Origin: a virus
Taxonomy: Duplodnaviria; Heunggongvirae; Uroviricota; Caudoviricetes
Virus record (IMG/VR): IMGVR_UViG_2690316149_000014
Location: 1-17,767 of that record
Length of the DNA stretch: 17,767 nt
Reading direction: 5' to 3' (one strand)
Under the pieces are notes generated by a model. That model made no database searches and was not told the DNA's origin. It was given only the letters and a program-made list of their open reading frames with translations. Position numbers and translations under genes: made by a program. Of the stretch, positions 2,805 through 12,735 are shown one piece after another; the first letter of the stretch is position 1; the number at the start of each line of letters is the position of its first letter.

Positions 2805-3079
2805 TTTTCCTCTTTTGGTTTATGAATCTGAATGGTCATGCCGCTTTGAGTGGTGACTACAATGACAGAACCAGGCTGAAGACTGTTAAGATTGAATGCT
2901 TCGTAAAACGAATCCAAGGCCAGCGTTTTTTTATTCTTTCGGTTCCACCAACGCCATCCCTTGCTACAGGCTACACTGACAATCCACTGCCCACTCCTGT
3001 AAGCCATATAAAACCAGATGAGCAAAACCTGAAGGAATGCTATCCAGTCAATAATCGTATATTTCGCGAAGGAGTCCAT
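2801..3079 (-). CDS. Hypothetical protein, 92 aa, N-terminal hydrophobic helix
   Basis: Track ORF 2801..3082 begins at GTG; the ATG at 3079 has RBS GAGGTG and overlaps the upstream stop (TGATG). Confidence 0.5.
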   Translation of the reverse strand: MDSFAKYTIIDWIAFLQVLLIWFYMAYRSGQWIVSVACSKGWRWWNRKNKKTLALDSFYEAFNLNSLQPGSVIVVTTQSGMTIQIHKPKEEK

Positions 3080-3945
3080 CACTTCACCTCCTGCTGCGGT
3101 GCTGCTGGCATTTCACGCCAGTGCGTAACTGAGTGCGGATCCGGATATTCAGTGCCATCATCCCAGCGATTGCCATTCCACATTGCAGACCACATCTCAC
3201 CGTCTTCATACATGACCATTACCGGAATTAACTTATCCGGCATTCGCTCACTACAGCTTATCCAACCATCCGGAGTTACCGGAACTTGCGGAATGGCTGT
3301 CTGCTCTCGAACGTCATTAGGCGCTATAGGTTCTGCTGCCAACTGACTGGCATATTTGTTAATGGTAACGATAAGCTCTTGCTCAGCCTCATCCAGACAA
3401 TCACCGATACCTCGCCTGTCACCGTCAAAATCATCGAAATCGGCACGAATCTTGGCAACCTTCAGGATTGCGGACAACACTTCACTAGGAATTACCGGAT
3501 AGTTGGTTGACGTTTCCGCGATTTCCCGAAAATTATTGGTTGACGAATTCTTATTTTCCCGAAAGTTTCCGGACTGAAGCATGGCGGCGCGGCAGGCGTT
3601 CCAGCCTCTCACCTCTGCAATAGCGGCAACAGCATCAACCGCGTACATGCTAAGAGGATTAGGCATTGGTTTTTCTTCCGGTACTACTGGAACGGGGGGA
3701 GCGGCGTAGACCTCAATAATTCCATTATCAATAGGCCATTCTCCATCCTTGAGGTAGTCACTTGTGCCGTCAACTTGCTGTTCTGCAATGTGGAATGCAC
3801 CTATTGGTTTTGCTTCCAGCGATGCCAGAGCAATCCGTGCCAGTTCTTCCGCTTCTTCTGCTGGCAGTACAACGTTGCTACCCGGTCCGTATGTTTCGCG
3901 CCACTGCTTGATTGTCAGCAGTCGCTCTTTGGTTATAGTGGTCAT
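3079..3945 (-). CDS. Phage protein with C-terminal DUF551-like domain, 288 aa
   Basis: C-terminus (…DGWISCSERMPD…VTHWREMPAAP) resembles the recalled DUF551 signature of lambdoid early-region proteins; N-terminal two-thirds unassigned. Confidence 0.65.
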   Translation of the reverse strand: MTTITKERLLTIKQWRETYGPGSNVVLPAEEAEELARIALASLEAKPIGAFHIAEQQVDGTSDYLKDGEWPIDNGIIEVYAAPPVPVVPEEKPMPNPLSMYAVDAVAAIAEVRGWNACRAAMLQSGNFRENKNSSTNNFREIAETSTNYPVIPSEVLSAILKVAKIRADFDDFDGDRRGIGDCLDEAEQELIVTINKYASQLAAEPIAPNDVREQTAIPQVPVTPDGWISCSERMPDKLIPVMVMYEDGEMWSAMWNGNRWDDGTEYPDPHSVTHWREMPAAPQQEVK

Positions 3946-3955
3946 TTGTTATGCC

Positions 3956-4153
3956 TCAATACACGAAATCTGTTTTAAATTCATGGTTACATTCTGGACA
4001 GCATGTTTCGTAACCTTTTATTTCTTCACATGCCTGTTTAGCTCCAGAAAACTCCCAGAAATCTGGATCACAAAGCAGATCGAAATTGTGACCACATTTG
4101 GGACATTCGGTATCAAGTGACAGACTCCAGTAGGCAGTGATGTTTTTATCCAT
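3956..4153 (-). CDS. Small zinc-ribbon-like protein, 65 aa (two CPxCG-type pairs)
   Basis: Track ORF 3956..4186 overlaps the upstream gene; the internal ATG at 4153 has RBS AGGAG and sits 1 nt after the upstream TGA. Motifs CPKCGH…CCPECNH. Confidence 0.55.
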   Translation of the reverse strand: MDKNITAYWSLSLDTECPKCGHNFDLLCDPDFWEFSGAKQACEEIKGYETCCPECNHEFKTDFVY

Positions 4154-5668: not shown

Positions 5669-5821
5669 CTAAAACTTGCTGTAATAACCGATACGGCTTA
5701 GTGTTTCTTTCCCTGCATTCTCGCCTTCTTTGATAATTCCTCTTTCGCTAAGAATCAGATCGTGTTTTGTTCCGGTAATAACGTATTTTCCGAGGTCGAT
5801 GTTTAGCTTCATTGTTTTCAT
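5669..5821 (-). CDS. Hypothetical small protein, 50 aa
   Basis: Track ORF 5669..5971 overlaps the upstream gene for 140 nt; the internal ATG at 5821 has RBS GAGGAA and sits just after the upstream TGA. Confidence 0.4.
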   Translation of the reverse strand: MKTMKLNIDLGKYVITGTKHDLILSERGIIKEGENAGKETLSRIGYYSKF

Positions 5822-5831
5822 TGTTAATTCC

Positions 5832-6125
5832 TCAGTCATTACTGATAGCGCCATAGCGTGAGCGGTAATTACGCAGGCGCGGGTCGATTTCAGGGAAGTG
5901 GGTATATGTGGCTTTGCGGAATGGTCGGATTGATGTCTGGTAAATTCGCTCTCGTTCTTCTTTCTCTGCAAGCCATATGCAGTGGCGAAACTCCTTTTCC
6001 TCTTTCGTTTCCTGCGGTAGAGACATTATTCGATCGTAGTTTTTTCTGAATTTATCCAGCACCTCCGATACGGAATTGCCGGAACAGCGGCGCGGGTCAT
6101 CCGCACCATATAGAGGCGCTGGCAT
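5832..6125 (-). CDS. Hypothetical phage protein, 97 aa
   Basis: RBS AGGAGAA 5 nt before the ATG at 6125; operon position between the exonuclease and downstream accessory genes. Confidence 0.55.
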   Translation of the reverse strand: MPAPLYGADDPRRCSGNSVSEVLDKFRKNYDRIMSLPQETKEEKEFRHCIWLAEKEERERIYQTSIRPFRKATYTHFPEIDPRLRNYRSRYGAISND

Positions 6126-7205: not shown

Positions 7206-7913
7206 TTATGCCGCCTGTTTTAGTTCGTTAACTCTGATGTTCATTACCTGAACGCATTTAGCCTGCGCATCCTCATTGCCAGCCATTAATTGCCAGTCAT
7301 GCTGATAACGTTCTATGAGTTTTTTCTTGTCAGTTTCTGTTGATGCATAATCGCTGAAGTCTTTCAGGATTTGTTCGCAGTCAACCGATGGAGATTTCTG
7401 GTTGGTATTTTCTGGTGATGGTTTGTTATCTGATGCTGGGATTGCCCATCCCGGCAGCGATGGAGGGAGCCAGTAAAATCCTGTTCCATCTTTCAGTTTT
7501 GCCCTGTGCCATCCCTGCTTTTTATCGAGAGATGTTTGTGCGAAACCTTCCTCAAGGTTATACAGATACCGACCGATTCCCCATTGAACGGCAGCACGCT
7601 TCATTGCACCGGAACGACCACCTTTGACGGCTTCTACCTGCGTGTTTTCAGCAGCATCCCATTTGGTTACCCATTCGGAATCAATCTTGATTGATATGCC
7701 GCATTCAACTCCGCCGTTGTTGGGAATATCGCGGTATTCATTGCGCCATCCTGCTTTGCCGCAAACATCGTCCAGGCGTTTCATGATTGCCCTGTTCGTG
7801 ACATAAGCCAGCACCATAGCCCACACCTTTCCATCGCGTGTTTTACCGCTTTGCTGTATTCGCCATTCGATATCTTCAGGGCTGAATGGCTCATCGAATT
7901 TATTCAAATCCAT
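7206..7913 (-). CDS. Single-strand annealing protein, Rad52/22-like family, 235 aa
   Basis: Motif …GGRSGAMKRAAVQWGIGRYLY… recalled as typical of phage Rad52/22-type recombinases; RBS GAGGTGA; stop abuts the ssb ATG (TAAATG). Confidence 0.65.
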   Translation of the reverse strand: MDLNKFDEPFSPEDIEWRIQQSGKTRDGKVWAMVLAYVTNRAIMKRLDDVCGKAGWRNEYRDIPNNGGVECGISIKIDSEWVTKWDAAENTQVEAVKGGRSGAMKRAAVQWGIGRYLYNLEEGFAQTSLDKKQGWHRAKLKDGTGFYWLPPSLPGWAIPASDNKPSPENTNQKSPSVDCEQILKDFSDYASTETDKKKLIERYQHDWQLMAGNEDAQAKCVQVMNIRVNELKQAA

Positions 7914-8460: not shown

Positions 8461-9429
8461 TTAGTAGGTTATTTTTGTTGCGAATACTTCGCCTTTTACG
8501 ATGGCTGTTATGATATTTTTAGCAACATCTTCTGATGCGCCAACCTTGATAAGGTCAGCAAGTATTTTGTTATTTACTTCTTTCCGGTGAGCTTTATCCT
8601 TTGCTCTACGCTCTTCTTCGTCCTTGATTCTTTTTTCTTCTGCTATTCTGGCTTGCTCTTTTGCTTCAGCCTCGCGACGGGTTCGTTCAGCCTCCTCCTG
8701 TGCTTTTCTGCGTTCTGCTTCAATTGCTGCCTGCTTTTCTCTTTCAGCTCGTTCTGCTGCCTCTTTTGCTTCGCGCTGTGCTCGTTGCTCGGCTTCAATG
8801 CGTTCACGCTCTGCACGTTCCGCTGCGGCCTTAGCTTCTGCTTCTCGCCTTGCTGCTGCTTCAATTTCGGCTTTTGCCTTTGCTTCGGCTTCTGCTCTGG
8901 CTTTCTCTTCAGCTTCTCTTTTTAATCGTTCTTCATGCTCTCGCTTTTCCTGCTCCGCTTTGAGTCTTGCCTCTTCTCTTTGGCGGTCAAATTCGCGATC
9001 CATCAAAATCGCTATTTCATGGTCAGACTCAATTTGCTTTGCGAGAGCTTCAGCTGCTGCCTTAGCTTCTTCTTCGGCTTTAATCCGCGCCTGTTCTTCC
9101 TCATAATCAGTAAGAGGCTGGCGCGCCTTGGCTTTCAGTTCATCAAGGCGATCACGCACTGTCTTGCGGTTGGCATCAATTAGCTTTGGAATTTCCTTAA
9201 GTTCAGCAACAAGGTCTTTGCCAATACCATCGAGATATGTTTTCGTCTGCGCAACTTTATACGCCAGAGAAGCGATCTCCTTTCTGCCCTTTGCCGTTGT
9301 GATATCAGGCACAAAGGACATAACTTCACGTTCAACCTTTTGAAGGATTTCTTCAATCTGGTCGGCAGACTGAAATACAGTCATTGCATTTGCTTTTTCA
9401 ATAACAACTAAATCTGTTACTTCACTCAT
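8461..9429 (-). CDS. Hypothetical phage protein, 322 aa, with long Glu/Ala/Lys/Arg-rich low-complexity coiled-coil centre
   Basis: Strong RBS GGAGGA; central ~150 aa are EAKR repeats, with matching GC-rich DNA repeats at 8600-9000. Confidence 0.65.
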   Translation of the reverse strand: MSEVTDLVVIEKANAMTVFQSADQIEEILQKVEREVMSFVPDITTAKGRKEIASLAYKVAQTKTYLDGIGKDLVAELKEIPKLIDANRKTVRDRLDELKAKARQPLTDYEEEQARIKAEEEAKAAAEALAKQIESDHEIAILMDREFDRQREEARLKAEQEKREHEERLKREAEEKARAEAEAKAKAEIEAAARREAEAKAAAERAERERIEAEQRAQREAKEAAERAEREKQAAIEAERRKAQEEAERTRREAEAKEQARIAEEKRIKDEEERRAKDKAHRKEVNNKILADLIKVGASEDVAKNIITAIVKGEVFATKITY

Positions 9430-9441
9430 ATATCCTCCATC

Positions 9442-9468
9442 AAAAAAATTGCCCTCACATTAGAGGGC
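9442..9468 (-). terminator. Intrinsic terminator in the leftward early operon (tL1-like): GCCCTC-loop-GAGGGC stem plus U-run
   Basis: Minus strand reads GCCCTCTAATGTGAGGGCAATTTTTTT. Lies between the 156-aa gene and the RBS of the 322-aa gene. Confidence 0.6.
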
Positions 9469-9530
9469 AAAGAAGATTTCCAATAATCAGAACAAGTCGG
9501 CTCCTGTTTAGTTACGAGCGACATTGCTCC

Positions 9531-9558
9531 GTGTATTCACTCGTTGGAATGAATACAC
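9531..9558. other. Perfect 9-bp inverted repeat GTGTATTCA-N10-TGAATACAC
   Basis: Seen directly; the arms contain operator-like half sites (GTATTC/GAATAC) in everted order; no U-run follows. Confidence 0.4.
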
Positions 9559-9572
9559 AGTGCTTATTCGTA

Positions 9573-10043
9573 CTAATAAAACACCCAGTTTTCTGTTTCT
9601 TGGTTGTGTCCAAAGTTATATTCAATATCTGGTGTTGATGTATCAATATTCTTCATCCCATCAACAAGAGTTGATACAACAGCCAAATCTTGTTTGATTC
9701 TCATTAAATGGTATTTCTTCCGGCGCAATAAACTCTCAATGGCAAGTTTCTTCGTTGGGAATGCAAAAGATCTTTCTGCATTTTTTGCTACTTTCTTAAT
9801 TGCATATCTATTTCTCCTTTGTTTCCATTCCTGTAACCACTGATTTGGTGCTGGTTTAAAATTAACAATCCAATGCGCAGGAACCAACCATGCATAATGC
9901 TCTGTCTGATGAAAAGCTATATATTGAAGTGCGAATATTTTTATCCCATCTTCTTCAACTGTCGCCTGGAATCTCCAGAAAACAGGCATTCCATCATGTT
10001 CAGTTTCTGATTCAGGAAAAGGTACGCTCCATGATTTTGTCAT
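9573..10043 (-). CDS. Hypothetical protein, 156 aa, in an AT-rich segment (moron-like)
   Basis: RBS GAGGTGAG; starts 8 nt after the N stop; local GC visibly lower than flanking genes; no recognisable motif. Confidence 0.65.
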   Translation of the reverse strand: MTKSWSVPFPESETEHDGMPVFWRFQATVEEDGIKIFALQYIAFHQTEHYAWLVPAHWIVNFKPAPNQWLQEWKQRRNRYAIKKVAKNAERSFAFPTKKLAIESLLRRKKYHLMRIKQDLAVVSTLVDGMKNIDTSTPDIEYNFGHNQETENWVFY

Positions 10044-10051
10044 ATCTCACC

Positions 10052-10351
10052 TCAAATAAGTGGTTTGCTGCCTAATTTCATTTTCTGGCGACCAACACAA
10101 GTCACACCCATTTCACTGCGTGGCTTGCGGTAGTAAATACGATTCTGTTTACTCTCTACTTCTTCTGCCTTCTTGCAGCGAAGGCTTCCGAGTGATGCTG
10201 CTTTATCTGCTCTGACGCAACCAGAGAGCTTTAGCGCAATTTTTCGCGCCAGTCGCTGCTCTTGCATTGCCTGTTCACGTTGAGCCTGTCTGCGTGCTCT
10301 GCGGCGATTTCTGGCGTTATCGTCAGCCAGATATGTAATGACTACTGTCAT
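10052..10351 (-). CDS. N: N-family transcription antiterminator, 99 aa, with arginine-rich motif
   Basis: Track ORF 10052..10423 trimmed to the ATG at 10351 (RBS GGAGG). N-terminal ARM …NARNRRRARRQAQREQ…; first gene downstream of pL/nutL; matching boxA/boxB sites on both sides of the immunity region. Confidence 0.65.
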   Translation of the reverse strand: MTVVITYLADDNARNRRRARRQAQREQAMQEQRLARKIALKLSGCVRADKAASLGSLRCKKAEEVESKQNRIYYRKPRSEMGVTCVGRQKMKLGSKPLI

Positions 10352-10391: not shown

Positions 10392-10511
10392 TTATTTGTT
10401 TTTGCGTTCCCACATCCAGTCATCTACTTCAGACCAGATAGTGAAACCGAAGCAGATGGCGAATGTGGTAACTAAACCACCGAGAATTGGGTTGGTCATG
10501 ATGTCTAACAT
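10392..10511 (-). CDS. Possible small hydrophobic peptide, 39 aa, in the pL leader between nutL and N
   Basis: Below the track cutoff. RBS GAGGAA 6 nt before the ATG; one predicted TM helix. Could be a chance ORF. Confidence 0.25.
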   Translation of the reverse strand: MLDIMTNPILGGLVTTFAICFGFTIWSEVDDWMWERKNK

Positions 10512-10681: not shown

Positions 10682-10724
10682 TTCCCGCATTTCGGCGGGA
10701 CAATCCCATCAATGTTAAAGAGCC
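10682..10724 (-). promoter_or_regulatory. nutL-like site: boxA (GGCTCTTTAACA) plus boxB hairpin (UCCCGC-CGAAAU-GCGGGA) in minus-strand transcript sense
   Basis: The boxB RNA is identical to the one at 12381-12398 on the opposite strand; boxA matches the CGCTCTTTA-type consensus. Confidence 0.6.
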
Positions 10725-10770
10725 TGCCAATCTTTTCCGTTTGGCTTCCAGCGTCCTGCTGATGGCTAAA

Positions 10771-10855
10771 GAATACTGTAGGTATTTTATTGTGTAAATA
10801 CCCAAGGTATTTATTTTTGATGAAATAATGATAAACAAATGAATACAAAGGATAT
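10771..10855. promoter_or_regulatory. OL operator cluster / pL region: three sites of form GAATAC-N5-GTATT
   Basis: Sites at ~10771-10786, 10797-10811 and a weaker one at ~10841-10855 share half sites with the OR operators. Confidence 0.55.
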
Positions 10856-10943
10856 TTATTTTTTCCGGTGTCTGCTTGTTCAGTGCTTTTTATGCGGGAT
10901 ATGTGAAGTGGATCCCGATAGCTATTGCTGCCGGGATTATGGG

Positions 10944-11312
10944 TTAGTCAGCGAAGGTTAAGACGAGAATTACCTTAATGATGTCTGCTACAACAGACAC
11001 GGCCATAGATAAACCAAAGACGATCCAAGCCATAGAGATGTCTTCACTACCATCGTATAGGGTTCCGTAATCACTGGTGTAAGGCGTAAATGTCGCGCCT
11101 TGATACAATAGGTATAAGCTTGATCCATAGAGGATAAATGCAGATATCCCTTGTATTGCTATGATCACTAGAATCATGAAACGAGCTGATCTATGCGCCC
11201 AAGCCTGGCTTATTTTTTCTGATAGAGATTTCGCAATAAAAGCATGCGCTAAGCCGTAAATTGTTGAGATTGCCAACATCCCCAAAAAGCTTGCTATAGC
11301 GGTTCCAACCAT
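10944..11312 (-). CDS. Small polytopic membrane protein, 122 aa, ~4 TM helices, in the rex position immediately downstream of cI
   Basis: RBS AAGGGGG; begins 19 nt after the cI stop on the same strand, upstream of OL/pL. No family recognised. Confidence 0.65.
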   Translation of the reverse strand: MVGTAIASFLGMLAISTIYGLAHAFIAKSLSEKISQAWAHRSARFMILVIIAIQGISAFILYGSSLYLLYQGATFTPYTSDYGTLYDGSEDISMAWIVFGLSMAVSVVADIIKVILVLTFAD

Positions 11313-11330: not shown

Positions 11331-12047
11331 TCAAACCAGTCTGAGTTTTGTCTCAATTGCAACGCCTATAATCTTGCAGTTTCCATTGATTGGCACGAGA
11401 GGCCATGCAGGATTAAGTCCCTTGAGGTATTTATTTCCGCCGTCGATTATCAGCTTCTTGAATGTTGCTTCGTTAGAGTCAGAAAGTTTTGCTATGACCA
11501 AGCTGCCGTTGATCGCCTCCCTTCCGGTATCGAAAAGAACGAATGTTCCCTCTGGAATGCTTAACCCAACCGGTGCCGTCATTGAATCACCTTCCACTTT
11601 AAGCCAGAACGCATTACCTTGAATATGCGCGTCAGACTCAAGCCAAACATCTATGTCTTTAATGGTGTATGGTTCGCATGCTTCACACCACGAGCCAGCC
11701 TGGATACTGCTTAACACCGGATACCTCTTTCCTGCTCTGTATTCCCCTGCATACCTTACGTTGGCATCGCTCTTAAGGCTTTCTGCCTGTTCTGCAACCT
11801 TGGCAGCAATTGACTGGCTAAAATCAGCAATTGAGACTTGCAACAATCGTGCAAAACCAGATGCAACCTCAACGTTTAGCGCGTTTCTGCCATTAAGATA
11901 ATGCCCTACCGCTCCTTGGGTGATACCCAGTTCATCAGCGATTGAGTATTGGGTTATTCCCAATTCTTTCTTTTTTGACTCATACAAAGCCTTAAGCCGC
12001 TTAGCGTCTTCGAGCTGTTCTGTCGTCAGTGATTTTTTATTTTCCAT
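11331..12047 (-). CDS. cI: CI-type prophage repressor: N-terminal XRE-family HTH plus C-terminal LexA/S24-like autocleavage domain, 238 aa
   Basis: HTH …QYSIADELGITQGAVGHYLNG…; C-terminal S24 signature …GDSM…/…KL…; no SD before the ATG (leaderless, as for lambda pRM); divergent from cro across an operator region. Confidence 0.9.
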   Translation of the reverse strand: MENKKSLTTEQLEDAKRLKALYESKKKELGITQYSIADELGITQGAVGHYLNGRNALNVEVASGFARLLQVSIADFSQSIAAKVAEQAESLKSDANVRYAGEYRAGKRYPVLSSIQAGSWCEACEPYTIKDIDVWLESDAHIQGNAFWLKVEGDSMTAPVGLSIPEGTFVLFDTGREAINGSLVIAKLSDSNEATFKKLIIDGGNKYLKGLNPAWPLVPINGNCKIIGVAIETKLRLV

Positions 12048-12082
12048 AGCTTAATTCTAATAGCTAAGGTACTTAAACTAAA

Positions 12083-12123
12083 AATACCCTGAGTATTGAT
12101 TGCTTTGAATACCTGTAGTATTC
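12083..12123. promoter_or_regulatory. OR operators with divergent pRM/pR promoters
   Basis: Two sites, AATACCCTGAGTATT (~12083-12097) and GAATACCTGTAGTATTC (~12107-12123), with centres ~25 bp apart. Candidate pR -35 TTGATT / -10 TATTCT; candidate pRM -10 TAGAAT placed for a leaderless cI start. Confidence 0.6.
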
Positions 12124-12153
12124 TTTGTTCATGGTTAATAACGGAGAGTGCAT

Positions 12154-12348
12154 ATGATTCGAATGACACTTGCCGATTACGCCAAAATCCATGGACAGGC
12201 TAAAGCAGCCAGTGACTTTGGTGTAATCCAGTGCGCTATCAGCAAGGCCATTCTGGCAGGCCGTAACATCATGGTTACGGTAAAGCCTGATGGCAGTGTG
12301 ATTGGAGAGGAAGTTCGTCCTTTCCCAAGCAACAAGAAAAACAAATAG
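12154..12348 (+). CDS. cro: Cro repressor, 64 aa from ATG 12154 (track ORF begins at GTG 12148)
   Basis: Recalled similarity to lambda Cro throughout; RBS GGAGAG upstream. Confidence 0.85.
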
Positions 12349-12354
12349 TAACAC

Positions 12355-12398
12355 CGCTCTTTAACAGTCATGGTCCTCATTCCCGCCGAAATGCGGGA
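12355..12398 (+). promoter_or_regulatory. nutR-like site: boxA (CGCTCTTTAACA) plus boxB hairpin (TCCCGC-CGAAAT-GCGGGA)
   Basis: Immediately downstream of the cro stop; boxB identical to the nutL copy in transcript sense. Confidence 0.6.
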
Positions 12399-12456
12399 AT
12401 ACAACGCGCATAAGTTGATGCGCATAACTTCTTATTAGTTAAGGAAATACTTACAT

Positions 12457-12735
12457 ATGCAACTTACAAGTACTCGCAAGAAAGCGAATGCAATTACAAG
12501 CAACATCCTGAATCGAATTGCTGTACGTGGTCAGCGAAAGGTTGCCGACGCGTTAGGGATTAATGAATCGCAAATTTCGCGATGGAAAGACAGCTTCATC
12601 CCAAAAATGGGAATGCTTCTGGCTGTTCTTGAATGGGGTGTTGAAGACGAGGAGTTGGCGGAACTGGCTAAGAAAGTAGCCAGAATGCTGACAAAAGAAA
12701 AAGCCCCGAAGAACGGCGAATTCTTCGAGGCCTGA
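12457..12735 (+). CDS. cII: CII transcriptional activator, 92 aa
   Basis: Recalled similarity to lambda CII (…SQISRWK…IPK..MLLAVLEWGV…); position right after cro/nutR. Confidence 0.85.
   Translation: MQLTSTRKKANAITSNILNRIAVRGQRKVADALGINESQISRWKDSFIPKMGMLLAVLEWGVEDEELAELAKKVARMLTKEKAPKNGEFFEA

What the first reader, a model, noticed from the sequence alone, without database searches (positions are those of the whole stretch)
9573..10043. AT-rich 156-aa moron directly coupled to N, upstream of the tL1-like terminator
Seen: the gene starts 8 nt after the N stop with a strong RBS, is visibly more AT-rich than its neighbours, and ends ~100 nt before a clean intrinsic terminator. It would therefore be expressed with N at the very start of infection even without antitermination. 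Established: in lambda the region just downstream of N holds host-interaction genes such as ral and sieB. Inference: an immediate-early anti-defence or host-takeover factor. No recognisable motif.
Basis: partly seen in the sequence, partly recalled or inferred. Interest (0 to 1): 0.6.

Follow-up and report, generated by a model that had tools for sequence, protein, structure and literature searches.

The report
Conserved early phage gene, function unknown
The 156-codon gene just after the phage's N gene is real, AT-rich and probably made at the very start of infection, but it is the long-catalogued, never-characterised HK97 gp45 / 933W L0079 protein, so the anti-defence idea stays an untested guess.

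Summary
On the minus strand, a 156-aa ORF (9573-10043) starts 8 nt after the stop codon of a 99-aa N gene. It has a 7-nt Shine-Dalgarno sequence that overlaps that stop. Its GC content is 36.5% against 45.7% for the window (GC3 29%). It ends 102 nt before an 8-bp-stem/U7 intrinsic terminator.

It is not a new gene. It is 100% identical to 933W L0079 and 99.4% identical to HK97 gp45 (PHROG 1636, function unknown). It occurs in 598 of 5,426 complete E. coli genomes and is always annotated as hypothetical.

It is under strong purifying selection (dN/dS 0.07-0.14). It belongs to a wider family of about 130-160 aa proteins in early regions of temperate and virulent phages of Vibrio, Pseudomonas, Pantoea and others.

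The coupling to N is not conserved. No promoter of its own was found, so it is only moron-like.

My best guess is a stoichiometric early host-interaction or counter-defence binder (confidence about 0.35). No homology or literature supports any specific function.

The parts
10770..10798 (-). pL-like sigma-70 promoter (TTTACA-17-TATTCT) overlapping the OL operators
   Evidence: Promoter scan, 9 of 12 matches. It is embedded in three AATACCnnnGGTATT-type operator copies at 10772-10863 that are also found in OR at 12082-12126.
10682..10723 (-). nutL. The boxA-like GCTCTTTAACA lies within 10706-10723. The boxB hairpin TCCCGCCGAAATGCGGGAA is at 10682-10700.
   Evidence: The 19-nt boxB is 100% identical, and the 18-nt boxA segment 89% identical, to a second copy downstream of cro (12356-12399, nutR). 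Sequence read.
10392..10511 (-). Small 39-aa hydrophobic ORF between nutL and N (MLDIMTNPILGGLVTTFAICFGFTIWSEVDDWMWERKNK)
   Evidence: It would be on the same immediate-early transcript. Not studied further.
10052..10351 (-). N antiterminator, 99 aa. It has an arginine-rich N-terminus (NARNRRRARRQAQ) and a C-terminus VTCVGRQKMKLGSKPLI of the lambda/21 type.
   Evidence: phrog_271 E 5.8e-36. Translation. GGAGG lies 6 nt before the ATG. The C-terminal type is recalled from memory of the lambda and phage 21 N sequences.
10044..10053 (-). N stop / Shine-Dalgarno / 8-nt intercistronic junction (T-GAGGTGA-GAT-ATG)
   Evidence: This stretch is invariant in 933W, HK97, PA28 and phi367.
9573..10043 (-). 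Target CDS: 156 aa, 18.6 kDa, pI 9.1. It is the HK97 gp45 / 933W L0079 / PHROG 1636 protein.
   Evidence: dN/dS 0.07-0.14. AlphaFold model with pLDDT 95.7.
9489..9558 (-). Structured 3' untranslated region: a 12-bp hairpin (9531-9558) followed by a second imperfect hairpin (9489-9530)
   Evidence: RNA fold of 9435-9575: MFE -49 kcal/mol against -29.5 +/- 3.4 for shuffles, z = -5.76.
9442..9470 (-). Intrinsic terminator in the position of lambda tL1 (8-bp stem, 5 G-C pairs, 6-nt loop, U7)
   Evidence: Terminator scan. Fold. The homologous element is annotated as a putative terminator in HK97.
9430..10105 (.). Mobile mosaic block shared at 98-99% DNA identity with 933W, Min27, P27 and many Stx phages. 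It comprises a 58-nt leader (here the 3' end of N), the gene, the hairpins, the terminator and the ribosome-binding site of the next gene.
   Evidence: Megablast coordinates 31-706 of query window:9400-10450. Junction alignment.
8461..9429 (-). First gene after the terminator: a 322-aa protein rich in E, A, K and R (phrog_1376, unknown function). It starts about 13 nt after the U-tract, so it is presumably N-dependent.

Best explanation
This is an early-operon accessory cassette of lambdoid phages. It consists of a leader with a strong ribosome-binding site, one gene, structured 3' hairpins and an intrinsic terminator. It has lodged directly behind N.

In this phage the gene is transcribed from pL through nutL and N, and transcription stops at the terminator at 9449-9470. 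The protein should therefore be made together with N in the first minutes of infection or induction, before antitermination is established (inferred from anatomy).

The product is a soluble, basic 18.6-kDa protein. It has an N-terminal sheet of long twisted beta strands, a 33-residue basic amphipathic helix and an ordered acidic C-terminal tail. The family-wide conserved residues are almost all hydrophobic core positions plus a few basic residues (R24, K87, K109). I therefore infer that it acts stoichiometrically, by binding a host macromolecule, and not as an enzyme. The partner would be a nucleic acid or an acidic host protein.

The most likely biological role is host interaction early in infection: neutralising a host defence or another host function. 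This is the role of its slot-mates Ral, Lar, Kil, CIII and Gam. The target and the phenotype are unknown.
For: Shown:
- It is a real gene under purifying selection: dN/dS 0.07-0.14 where synonymous sites are not saturated, and pN 0.21-0.29 against pS 0.70-0.91 in the more divergent pairs, most of them saturated.
- It is 100% / 99.4% identical to 933W L0079 / HK97 gp45.
- It is present in 598 of 5,426 complete E. coli genomes, with up to 4 copies per genome.
- It lies between pL/nutL and the first intrinsic terminator found on that strand.
- It sits in a variable slot: mEpX2 (same immunity region) and Sp5 carry other small genes there.
- Its composition is deviant: GC 36.5%, GC3 29%.
- A wider family was found by profile search: 87 representatives at E<=1e-3. 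tblastn hits from distant members back to HK97 gp45 confirm the relationship.
- Family members occur in early regions of temperate and virulent phages. In Bas81 the gene is the first one behind a 10-of-12 sigma-70 promoter. In Vibrio PvVp04 it sits at a divergent early region.
- Anti-restriction-type genes recur nearby: ral directly upstream in phi367, Lar in 2 of 18 loci, and DNA methyltransferases 2-5 genes away in LIET2, Touem01 and Medea1.
- The protein is soluble and basic: pI 9.07, 17 K/R in residues 56-130, no transmembrane segment.
- Few polar residues are conserved, and the most conserved acidic position (E46) is Q in this clade.
- The AlphaFold model is confident (pLDDT 95.7, pTM 0.83). 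It matches no solved enzyme or structural protein.
Against: - There is no homology to any characterised anti-defence or host-takeover protein. Pfam, NCBIfam, PADLOC, PDB sequence and PDB fold searches gave nothing significant.
- Immediate-early placement is not conserved. In phi367 and in the Pectobacterium and Brenneria prophages a terminator-like hairpin precedes the gene.
- The neighbourhood analysis of 18 loci found no consistent partner. Methyltransferases and Lar are common in phage early regions anyway, and no control frequency was computed.
- A basic protein could equally be a phage regulator.
- No experimental paper was found.
- Rho-dependent termination between pL and the gene cannot be excluded.
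Confidence: 0.35

Rival explanations
1. It is a phage-directed nucleic-acid-binding regulator. The basic sheet-plus-helix protein would bind phage DNA or the pL transcript and tune early gene expression or the lysis-lysogeny decision, rather than acting on the host.
For: The central region is basic, with conserved R24, K87 and K109. It is the first gene behind a promoter at divergent early regions in Bas81 and PvVp04, a typical place for regulators. It is co-expressed with the regulator N. It is followed by conserved RNA hairpins.
Against: It has no HTH, RHH or other known nucleic-acid-binding motif or fold. The gene is dispensable for the lambdoid plan, being absent from mEpX2, Sp5 and lambda-type genomes with the same regulatory circuits. 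The identical protein is paired with three different N and immunity types, which argues against a circuit-specific regulator.
Confidence: 0.22
2. It is a prophage-encoded defence or superinfection-exclusion factor that benefits the lysogen, like SieB, Rex or HK97 gp15.
For: It is AT-rich, terminator-flanked and moron-like. It is very common in E. coli prophages. In the Pectobacterium and Brenneria prophages it is isolated between terminators next to int, where a promoter of its own would be needed.
Against: No promoter was found upstream in this window, and pL is repressed in lysogens. There was no PADLOC match above chance. It has no membrane segment. Homologues occur in apparently virulent phages and as the first early gene.
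Confidence: 0.1
3. It is an accessory factor of phage recombination or replication, for example a DNA-end-binding or ssDNA-binding helper of the Rad52/Erf/Bet modules that follow it in the operon.
For: It lies in the same operon as the recombination genes here (Rad52-type gene at 7206-7913). In one distant locus it sits directly after AAA_24 and DUF3799 genes, and in PvVp04 it is adjacent to RecE. The protein is basic.
Against: The association is explained by the general content of pL-type operons. The same protein is combined with Bet/Exo, Erf, RecT and Rad52 modules alike. In this window a terminator separates it from the recombination genes. It shows no similarity to known SSB, Gam or Ku folds.
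Confidence: 0.1
4. It is a modulator of the transcription-elongation complex. A small Tudor/KOW-like beta barrel with a helix would dock on RNA polymerase, Nus factors or Rho and assist or tune N-dependent antitermination.
Confidence: 0.07
5. It is a spurious or decaying ORF in an AT-rich spacer.
For: It is AT-rich, and every database annotates it as hypothetical.
Against: dN/dS is 0.07-0.14. Full-length homologues exist at 55-85% identity with 40 invariant positions. The AlphaFold model is confident. It has a strong, invariant ribosome-binding site.
Confidence: 0.01

Closest known systems
HK97 gp45 / 933W L0079 / Stx2-phage-86 orf57 (PHROG 1636, 'Prophage protein')
   Same: It is the same protein (99.4-100% identity). 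It has the same leader, ribosome-binding site and downstream terminator, and the same place in the leftward early operon after N.
   Different: In HK97 and 933W a 58-nt non-coding spacer separates it from N. Here the N reading frame runs through that spacer, so the gap is 8 nt. None of these entries has a known function.
Lambda Ral / Rac Lar (restriction alleviation genes of the pL operon)
   Same: All are small accessory genes in the N-proximal part of the leftward early operon. ral is the immediate upstream neighbour in phi367, and Lar-family genes lie 1-2 genes away in two distant loci.
   Different: There is no sequence similarity (no Pfam Ral or Lar hit). The target is more than twice as large and has a different predicted fold. 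It co-occurs with ral, so it is not a replacement for it.
Morons of lambdoid phages (for example HK97 gene 15), as defined by Juhala and Hendrix (from my own knowledge)
   Same: It is an extra gene of deviant base composition, with its own terminator, present or absent between otherwise related phages.
   Different: No promoter of its own was detected. Here it depends on pL, so it should be silent in the lysogen.
Lambda immediate-early unit pL-nutL-N-tL1 (established knowledge)
   Same: The order is the same: promoter with operators, then boxA/boxB, then N, then the first terminator.
   Different: Two additional ORFs lie inside the unit: a 39-aa hydrophobic ORF before N, and the 156-aa gene between N and the terminator.
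PipX and other Tudor/KOW/SH3-like small-barrel proteins (nearest solved structures)

Membership tests
PHROG 1636 (HK97 gp45 / 933W L0079 family, function unknown) | Full-length match to the family profile | tested here: met
   E 2.7e-112, residues 1-156 on profile positions 1-156 of 156
PHROG 1636 (HK97 gp45 / 933W L0079 family, function unknown) | Near-identity to named members | tested here: met
   100% to 933W L0079 and 99.4% to HK97 Gp45. 74 phage records are at >=99% identity.
Moron (Juhala/Hendrix definition) | Extra gene present or absent between otherwise related phages at the same slot | tested here: met
   mEpX2, with the same cI/cro/nut region, has gp40 and gp39 there instead. Sp5 has ECs_1180.
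Moron (Juhala/Hendrix definition) | Base composition different from the surrounding genome | tested here: met
   GC 36.5% against 45.7%, GC3 29%, lowest 0.9% of windows
Moron (Juhala/Hendrix definition) | Own terminator downstream | tested here: met
   Terminator at 9470-9449 plus U7. It travels with the gene in HK97 and 933W.
Moron (Juhala/Hendrix definition) | Own promoter upstream | tested here: not met
   No sigma-70-like site on the minus strand between 10044 and 10769. This was a consensus scan only, so weak or non-sigma-70 promoters are not excluded.
Moron (Juhala/Hendrix definition) | Expression from the repressed prophage | not testable with these tools
   Needs a lysogen transcriptome or proteome
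Ral / Lar restriction-alleviation proteins | Sequence membership in the Pfam Ral or Lar_restr_allev families | tested here: not met
   No Pfam family at E<=0.1 for the protein, and none among 49 family members
Ral / Lar restriction-alleviation proteins | Alleviation of type I restriction in vivo | not testable with these tools
   Needs plating of unmodified phage on EcoKI/EcoBI hosts
DNA-mimic anti-restriction proteins (Ocr, ArdA) | Strongly acidic protein that mimics the DNA backbone | tested here: not met
   pI 9.07 and net charge +3. The central region has 17 K/R.
DNA-mimic anti-restriction proteins (Ocr, ArdA) | Fold similarity to solved Ocr/ArdA structures | tested here: not met
SieB / Rex-type prophage exclusion proteins and known defence systems | Membrane segments, or a match to a known defence-system model | tested here: not met
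   Maximum 19-residue hydropathy is 0.56, so no transmembrane segment. The only PADLOC hit is chance-level (Cas1_II, E 0.018).
Immediate-early transcription unit of lambdoid phages (pL to first terminator) | Lies downstream of pL/nutL with no intrinsic terminator before it | tested here: met
   pL-like site at 10798-10770, nutL at 10723-10682. The first terminator on the minus strand is at 9470.
Immediate-early transcription unit of lambdoid phages (pL to first terminator) | No Rho-dependent termination before the gene; transcript present before N acts | not testable with these tools
   Needs time-resolved RNA-seq or an N-minus infection

The most novel reading that the evidence does not exclude
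The protein could be the founding, structurally novel member of a widespread family of early phage proteins (Stx phages, HK97, and phages of Vibrio, Pseudomonas, Pantoea, Rhizobium, Cellulophaga and others). Such a protein would disarm a host immune system or another host function by direct binding. Because it is made with N before any other phage function, it would help determine the host range of Shiga-toxin phages.
Probability: 0.3. Interest if true: 0.65.

Novelty: new member of a known kind. Interest (0 to 1): 0.4.

Why it matters
The gene is carried by about 11% of complete E. coli genomes and by many Stx1a, Stx2a and HK97-like phages. In several of them it is one of only two or three proteins that can be made before antitermination. 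Even so, it has no name, no domain, no solved relative and no literature.

If it is a counter-defence or host-takeover factor, it would bear on how Shiga-toxin phages spread between strains, and it would add a new fold to the anti-defence repertoire. If it is a phage regulator, it would be an unrecognised component of a textbook circuit.

Either way it is a cheap, well-defined target. It is a single gene that other lambdoids lack, so it is probably dispensable, and HK97 and 933W are available as genetic systems.

Tried and rejected
Searches that gave no assignment:
- Sequence families: Pfam, NCBIfam, PADLOC and PDB sequence searches, with the single protein and with a 49-member profile, gave nothing above chance.
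- PHROGs: only unknown-function families were found (1636, 13631, 25384, 28215).
- First AlphaFold run: a shallow alignment of 20 close sequences gave pLDDT 59 and was discarded. The run with 49 sequences gave 95.7.
- Neighbourhood analysis: I scanned about 150 neighbouring ORFs from 18 loci against Pfam and found no recurrent partner. The apparent link to methyltransferases and Lar was noted but not accepted, because no background frequency was computed.
- Literature: eight searches (L0079, HK97 gp45, accession numbers, PHROG id, lambdoid anti-defence, defence triggers, morons) and a search of the supplements of the Silas et al. accessory-gene screen (PMC12373910) found nothing on this protein.
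- RNA genes: Rfam and tRNA scans of the window were empty.
- The search for related loci failed on the broad alignments because they had no conserved stretch.

Ideas rejected:
- Strict moron: no promoter.
- DNA mimic: the protein is basic.
- Membrane exclusion protein: no transmembrane segment.
- Enzyme: no conserved catalytic-type residues.
- Obligatory partner of N: the coupling is not conserved.

Full report
WHAT THE WINDOW IS

The window is the early region of a mosaic lambdoid (P22/HK620-like) phage or prophage. The main genes are:
- a cI-type repressor (11331-12047, minus strand; HTH_3 plus Peptidase_S24);
- cro (12148-12348) and cII (12457-12735);
- O- and P-like replication genes to the right;
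- a leftward operon with a Rad52-type annealing protein (7206-7913).

Three operator-like copies of AATACCnnnGGTATT lie at 10772-10863, and related copies lie in OR at 12082-12126. A pL-like promoter (TTTACA-17-TATTCT, 10798-10770, minus strand) overlaps the left set. Downstream of it there is a boxA-like GCTCTTTAACA and a boxB hairpin (10723-10682). These recur almost exactly after cro (12356-12399), so they are nutL and nutR.

After nutL, reading leftward, come:
- a 39-aa hydrophobic ORF (10511-10392);
- N (10351-10052, 99 aa; phrog_271 E 5.8e-36);
- the finding (10043-9573);
- two RNA hairpins;
- an intrinsic terminator (9470-9449 plus seven U);
- a 322-aa gene, about 13 nt further on.

CHECK OF THE OBSERVATION

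- Junction. It reads ATT-TGA-GGTGAGAT-ATG. The gap is 8 nt, and the 7-nt Shine-Dalgarno sequence GAGGTGA overlaps the N stop codon.
- Composition. The gene has 36.5% GC and 29% GC3. The window has 45.7%, and the other genes have 42-50%. Only 0.9% of equal-sized windows are as AT-rich, and all of them overlap this locus. The AT-rich tract is somewhat wider than the gene (about 9150-10050).
- Terminator. It lies 102 nt beyond the stop codon. It has an 8-bp stem with five G-C pairs and a U7 tail. The whole 3' region folds with z = -5.8 relative to shuffles.
- No other terminator-like site was found on the minus strand between pL and this terminator. The gene therefore belongs to the same unit as N. 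Rho-dependent sites cannot be assessed.

WHAT IT IS

It is not a new gene. It matches PHROG 1636 (unknown function) end to end (E 2.7e-112). It is 100% identical to 933W L0079 and 99.4% identical to HK97 Gp45. Both were deposited as hypothetical proteins. In HK97 the gene is followed by an annotated 'putative terminator'.

Distribution:
- 87 phage records encode the protein, mostly Stx1a and Stx2a phages.
- 598 of 5,426 complete E. coli genomes carry it, with up to four copies, always annotated as 'hypothetical protein'.
- The exact protein occurs on at least 1,000 contigs. The only names given are 'hypothetical' or 'Prophage protein'.

It is a real coding gene.
- Homologues at 55-85% identity in Pectobacterium, Brenneria, Cronobacter, Rosenbergiella and metagenomes keep 40 invariant positions.
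- dN/dS is 0.07-0.14 where synonymous sites are not saturated.

A profile search of 1.8 billion representative proteins found 87 relatives (E<=1e-3), mostly 130-160 aa. Two of them hit HK97 gp45 back by tblastn. They share the motif K-x-I-x-K-x-x-sRFAF-x-TK-x-x-A-x-x-x-L-x-x-RK-x-x-Q-x-x-HL-x-R-D-L.

STRUCTURE

With the 49-sequence alignment, AlphaFold gave pLDDT 95.7 and pTM 0.83. The model has:
- long strands at 19-30, 33-46 and 50-55, and a short strand at 83-86;
- short helices at 56-61 and 66-74;
- a 33-residue helix at 98-130;
- an ordered C-terminal tail carrying the conserved YNFGHNxETExWxF motif.

The protein is soluble. Its pI is 9.07, with 17 K/R between residues 56 and 130, acidic termini and no membrane segment.

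Across the whole family, the conserved positions are almost all hydrophobic. The exceptions are R24, E46, T47, K87 and K109, and E46 is Q in this clade. That pattern fits a binding protein, not an enzyme. This is an inference.

CONTEXT AND MOSAICISM

The block shared at 98-99% DNA identity with 933W-like phages runs from 9430 to about 10105. Position 9430 is exactly the start of the next gene.

An alignment of the upstream junction is informative.
- The last 58 nt before the ATG are identical in this window, 933W, HK97 and PA28.
- In 933W and HK97, N stops just before this stretch, so it is non-coding there.
- Here the N frame reads through it and ends ...VTCVGRQKMKLGSKPLI. From my memory of the lambda and phage 21 N sequences, this is the normal C-terminus of that N type.
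- The spacer in 933W and HK97 is therefore most simply a relic of such an N gene. The 8-nt coupling is one of several joints, not a property of the family.

Other arrangements:
- In phi367, ral and a terminator-like hairpin directly precede the gene.
- In PA28 a small ORF lies between it and N, and the gp17 gene follows it.
- In Pectobacterium and Brenneria prophages, the 62-63% identical homologue is the last gene before xis-int. An intrinsic terminator lies about 28 nt upstream, and in one case another lies downstream.
- In phage Bas81 it is the first gene behind a 10-of-12 sigma-70 promoter at a divergent region.
- In Vibrio phage PvVp04 the position is similar.
- mEpX2 has the same repressor, nut sites and rex-position gene, yet carries two different small genes after N. 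Sakai Sp5 carries an 83-aa gene there.

The slot after N is therefore a variable accessory slot, and this cassette is one of its occupants.

A Pfam scan of about 150 neighbouring ORFs from 18 loci gave only generic early-region content:
- integrases;
- Lar (2 loci);
- DUF3799 (2 loci);
- DNA methyltransferase-type domains;
- replication and partition genes.

No recurrent partner emerged. Anti-restriction-type neighbours do recur: ral, Lar, and methyltransferases in LIET2, Touem01 and Medea1. I computed no background frequency, so I treat this as a hint only.

HOW IT MOST LIKELY WORKS

Shown:
- It is a conserved, selected, soluble, basic protein.
- It has a confidently predicted fold not seen among solved structures.
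- It is encoded in a mobile cassette with its own ribosome-binding site and terminator.
- The cassette sits in early operons of many phages.
- In this window it lies inside the pL-N-terminator unit.

Inferred:
- It is made with N before antitermination.
- It acts by stoichiometric binding to a nucleic acid or an acidic host protein.
- Like its slot-mates, it serves host interaction or counter-defence.

I put this at about 0.35. The rivals are:
- a phage-directed nucleic-acid-binding regulator (0.22);
- prophage-encoded exclusion (0.10);
- a recombination or replication helper (0.10);
- a modulator binding RNA polymerase or Nus factors (0.07);
- a spurious ORF (0.01, refuted by conservation).

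COMPARISON WITH WHAT IS KNOWN

- The gene is a member of PHROG 1636 (tested, met).
- It is only moron-like. Its composition, its terminator and its presence/absence pattern fit the definition. The promoter test was not met, and expression in the prophage is untestable here.
- It is not a member of the Ral, Lar, Ocr, ArdA or SieB families, nor of any PADLOC family.
- No paper on its function was found in eight literature searches and one supplement search.

VERDICT

The gene is a long-catalogued hypothetical protein, and the tools gave no positive evidence for the proposed anti-defence role.

The new results are these:
- the identification with HK97 gp45 / 933W L0079;
- the extension of the family to virulent phages of distant hosts;
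- a confident model with no solved analogue;
- the finding that the N coupling is a local joint.

Interest is moderate (0.4). It is a good, cheap experimental target, but not a surprise.

Noticed in passing
window 10392-10511 (minus strand): A 39-aa ORF with one hydrophobic segment (MLDIMTNPILGGLVTTFAICFGFTIWSEVDDWMWERKNK) lies between nutL and N, so it is on the same immediate-early transcript. In phage 611R6 a CDS in the corresponding position between N and the rex-position gene carries an implausible 'proline-rich cell wall protein' label.
   Followed up: partly
window 10044-10105, compared with L001 (933W) and L008 (HK97): The 58-nt non-coding spacer upstream of L0079/gp45 in 933W and HK97 is identical to the 3' end of this window's N gene. 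It looks like a relic of a lambda/21-type N C-terminus left by recombination inside N.
   Followed up: yes
window 10944-11312 (minus strand): A 122-aa multi-pass membrane protein (phrog_6534, unknown function) lies directly downstream of cI, in the position of lambda rexAB. It is also present in mEpX2, HK620-like phages and phi367. It is a candidate prophage-expressed exclusion gene.
   Followed up: no
window 8461-9429 (minus strand): A 322-aa protein has a long E/A/K/R-rich central region that is probably coiled coil. This region produces an extreme AT skew (-0.74) at 8700-9000. The protein is labelled 'TolA protein' in one phage record but is PHROG 1376, unknown function. Its AT-rich N-terminal 115 aa form a separate PHROG module.
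   Followed up: no
window 9489-9558 (minus strand): A perfect 12-bp hairpin without a U-tract and a second imperfect hairpin lie between the stop codon and the terminator. They may be a processing or stability element. They travel with the cassette.
   Followed up: partly
window 10682-10723 and 12356-12399: nutL and nutR share a 19-nt boxB hairpin (100% identical) and a boxA-like segment (89% identical). The OL and OR operators share an AATACCnnnGGTATT core.
   Followed up: yes
L019 and L020 (Brenneria alni and Pectobacterium betavasculorum prophages), 2950-3540: The 62-63% identical homologue sits next to xis-int. An intrinsic terminator lies about 28 nt upstream, and in L020 another lies downstream. 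The gene is therefore an insulated unit there and may have a promoter of its own.
   Followed up: partly
L034 (E. coli Sakai prophage Sp5) 5721-5972, and L035 (mEpX2) 3644-4113: Other small uncharacterised genes occupy the same slot after N: ECs_1180 (83 aa) in Sp5, and gp39 and gp40 in mEpX2. The N-proximal slot is a hotspot of unknown accessory genes.
   Followed up: no
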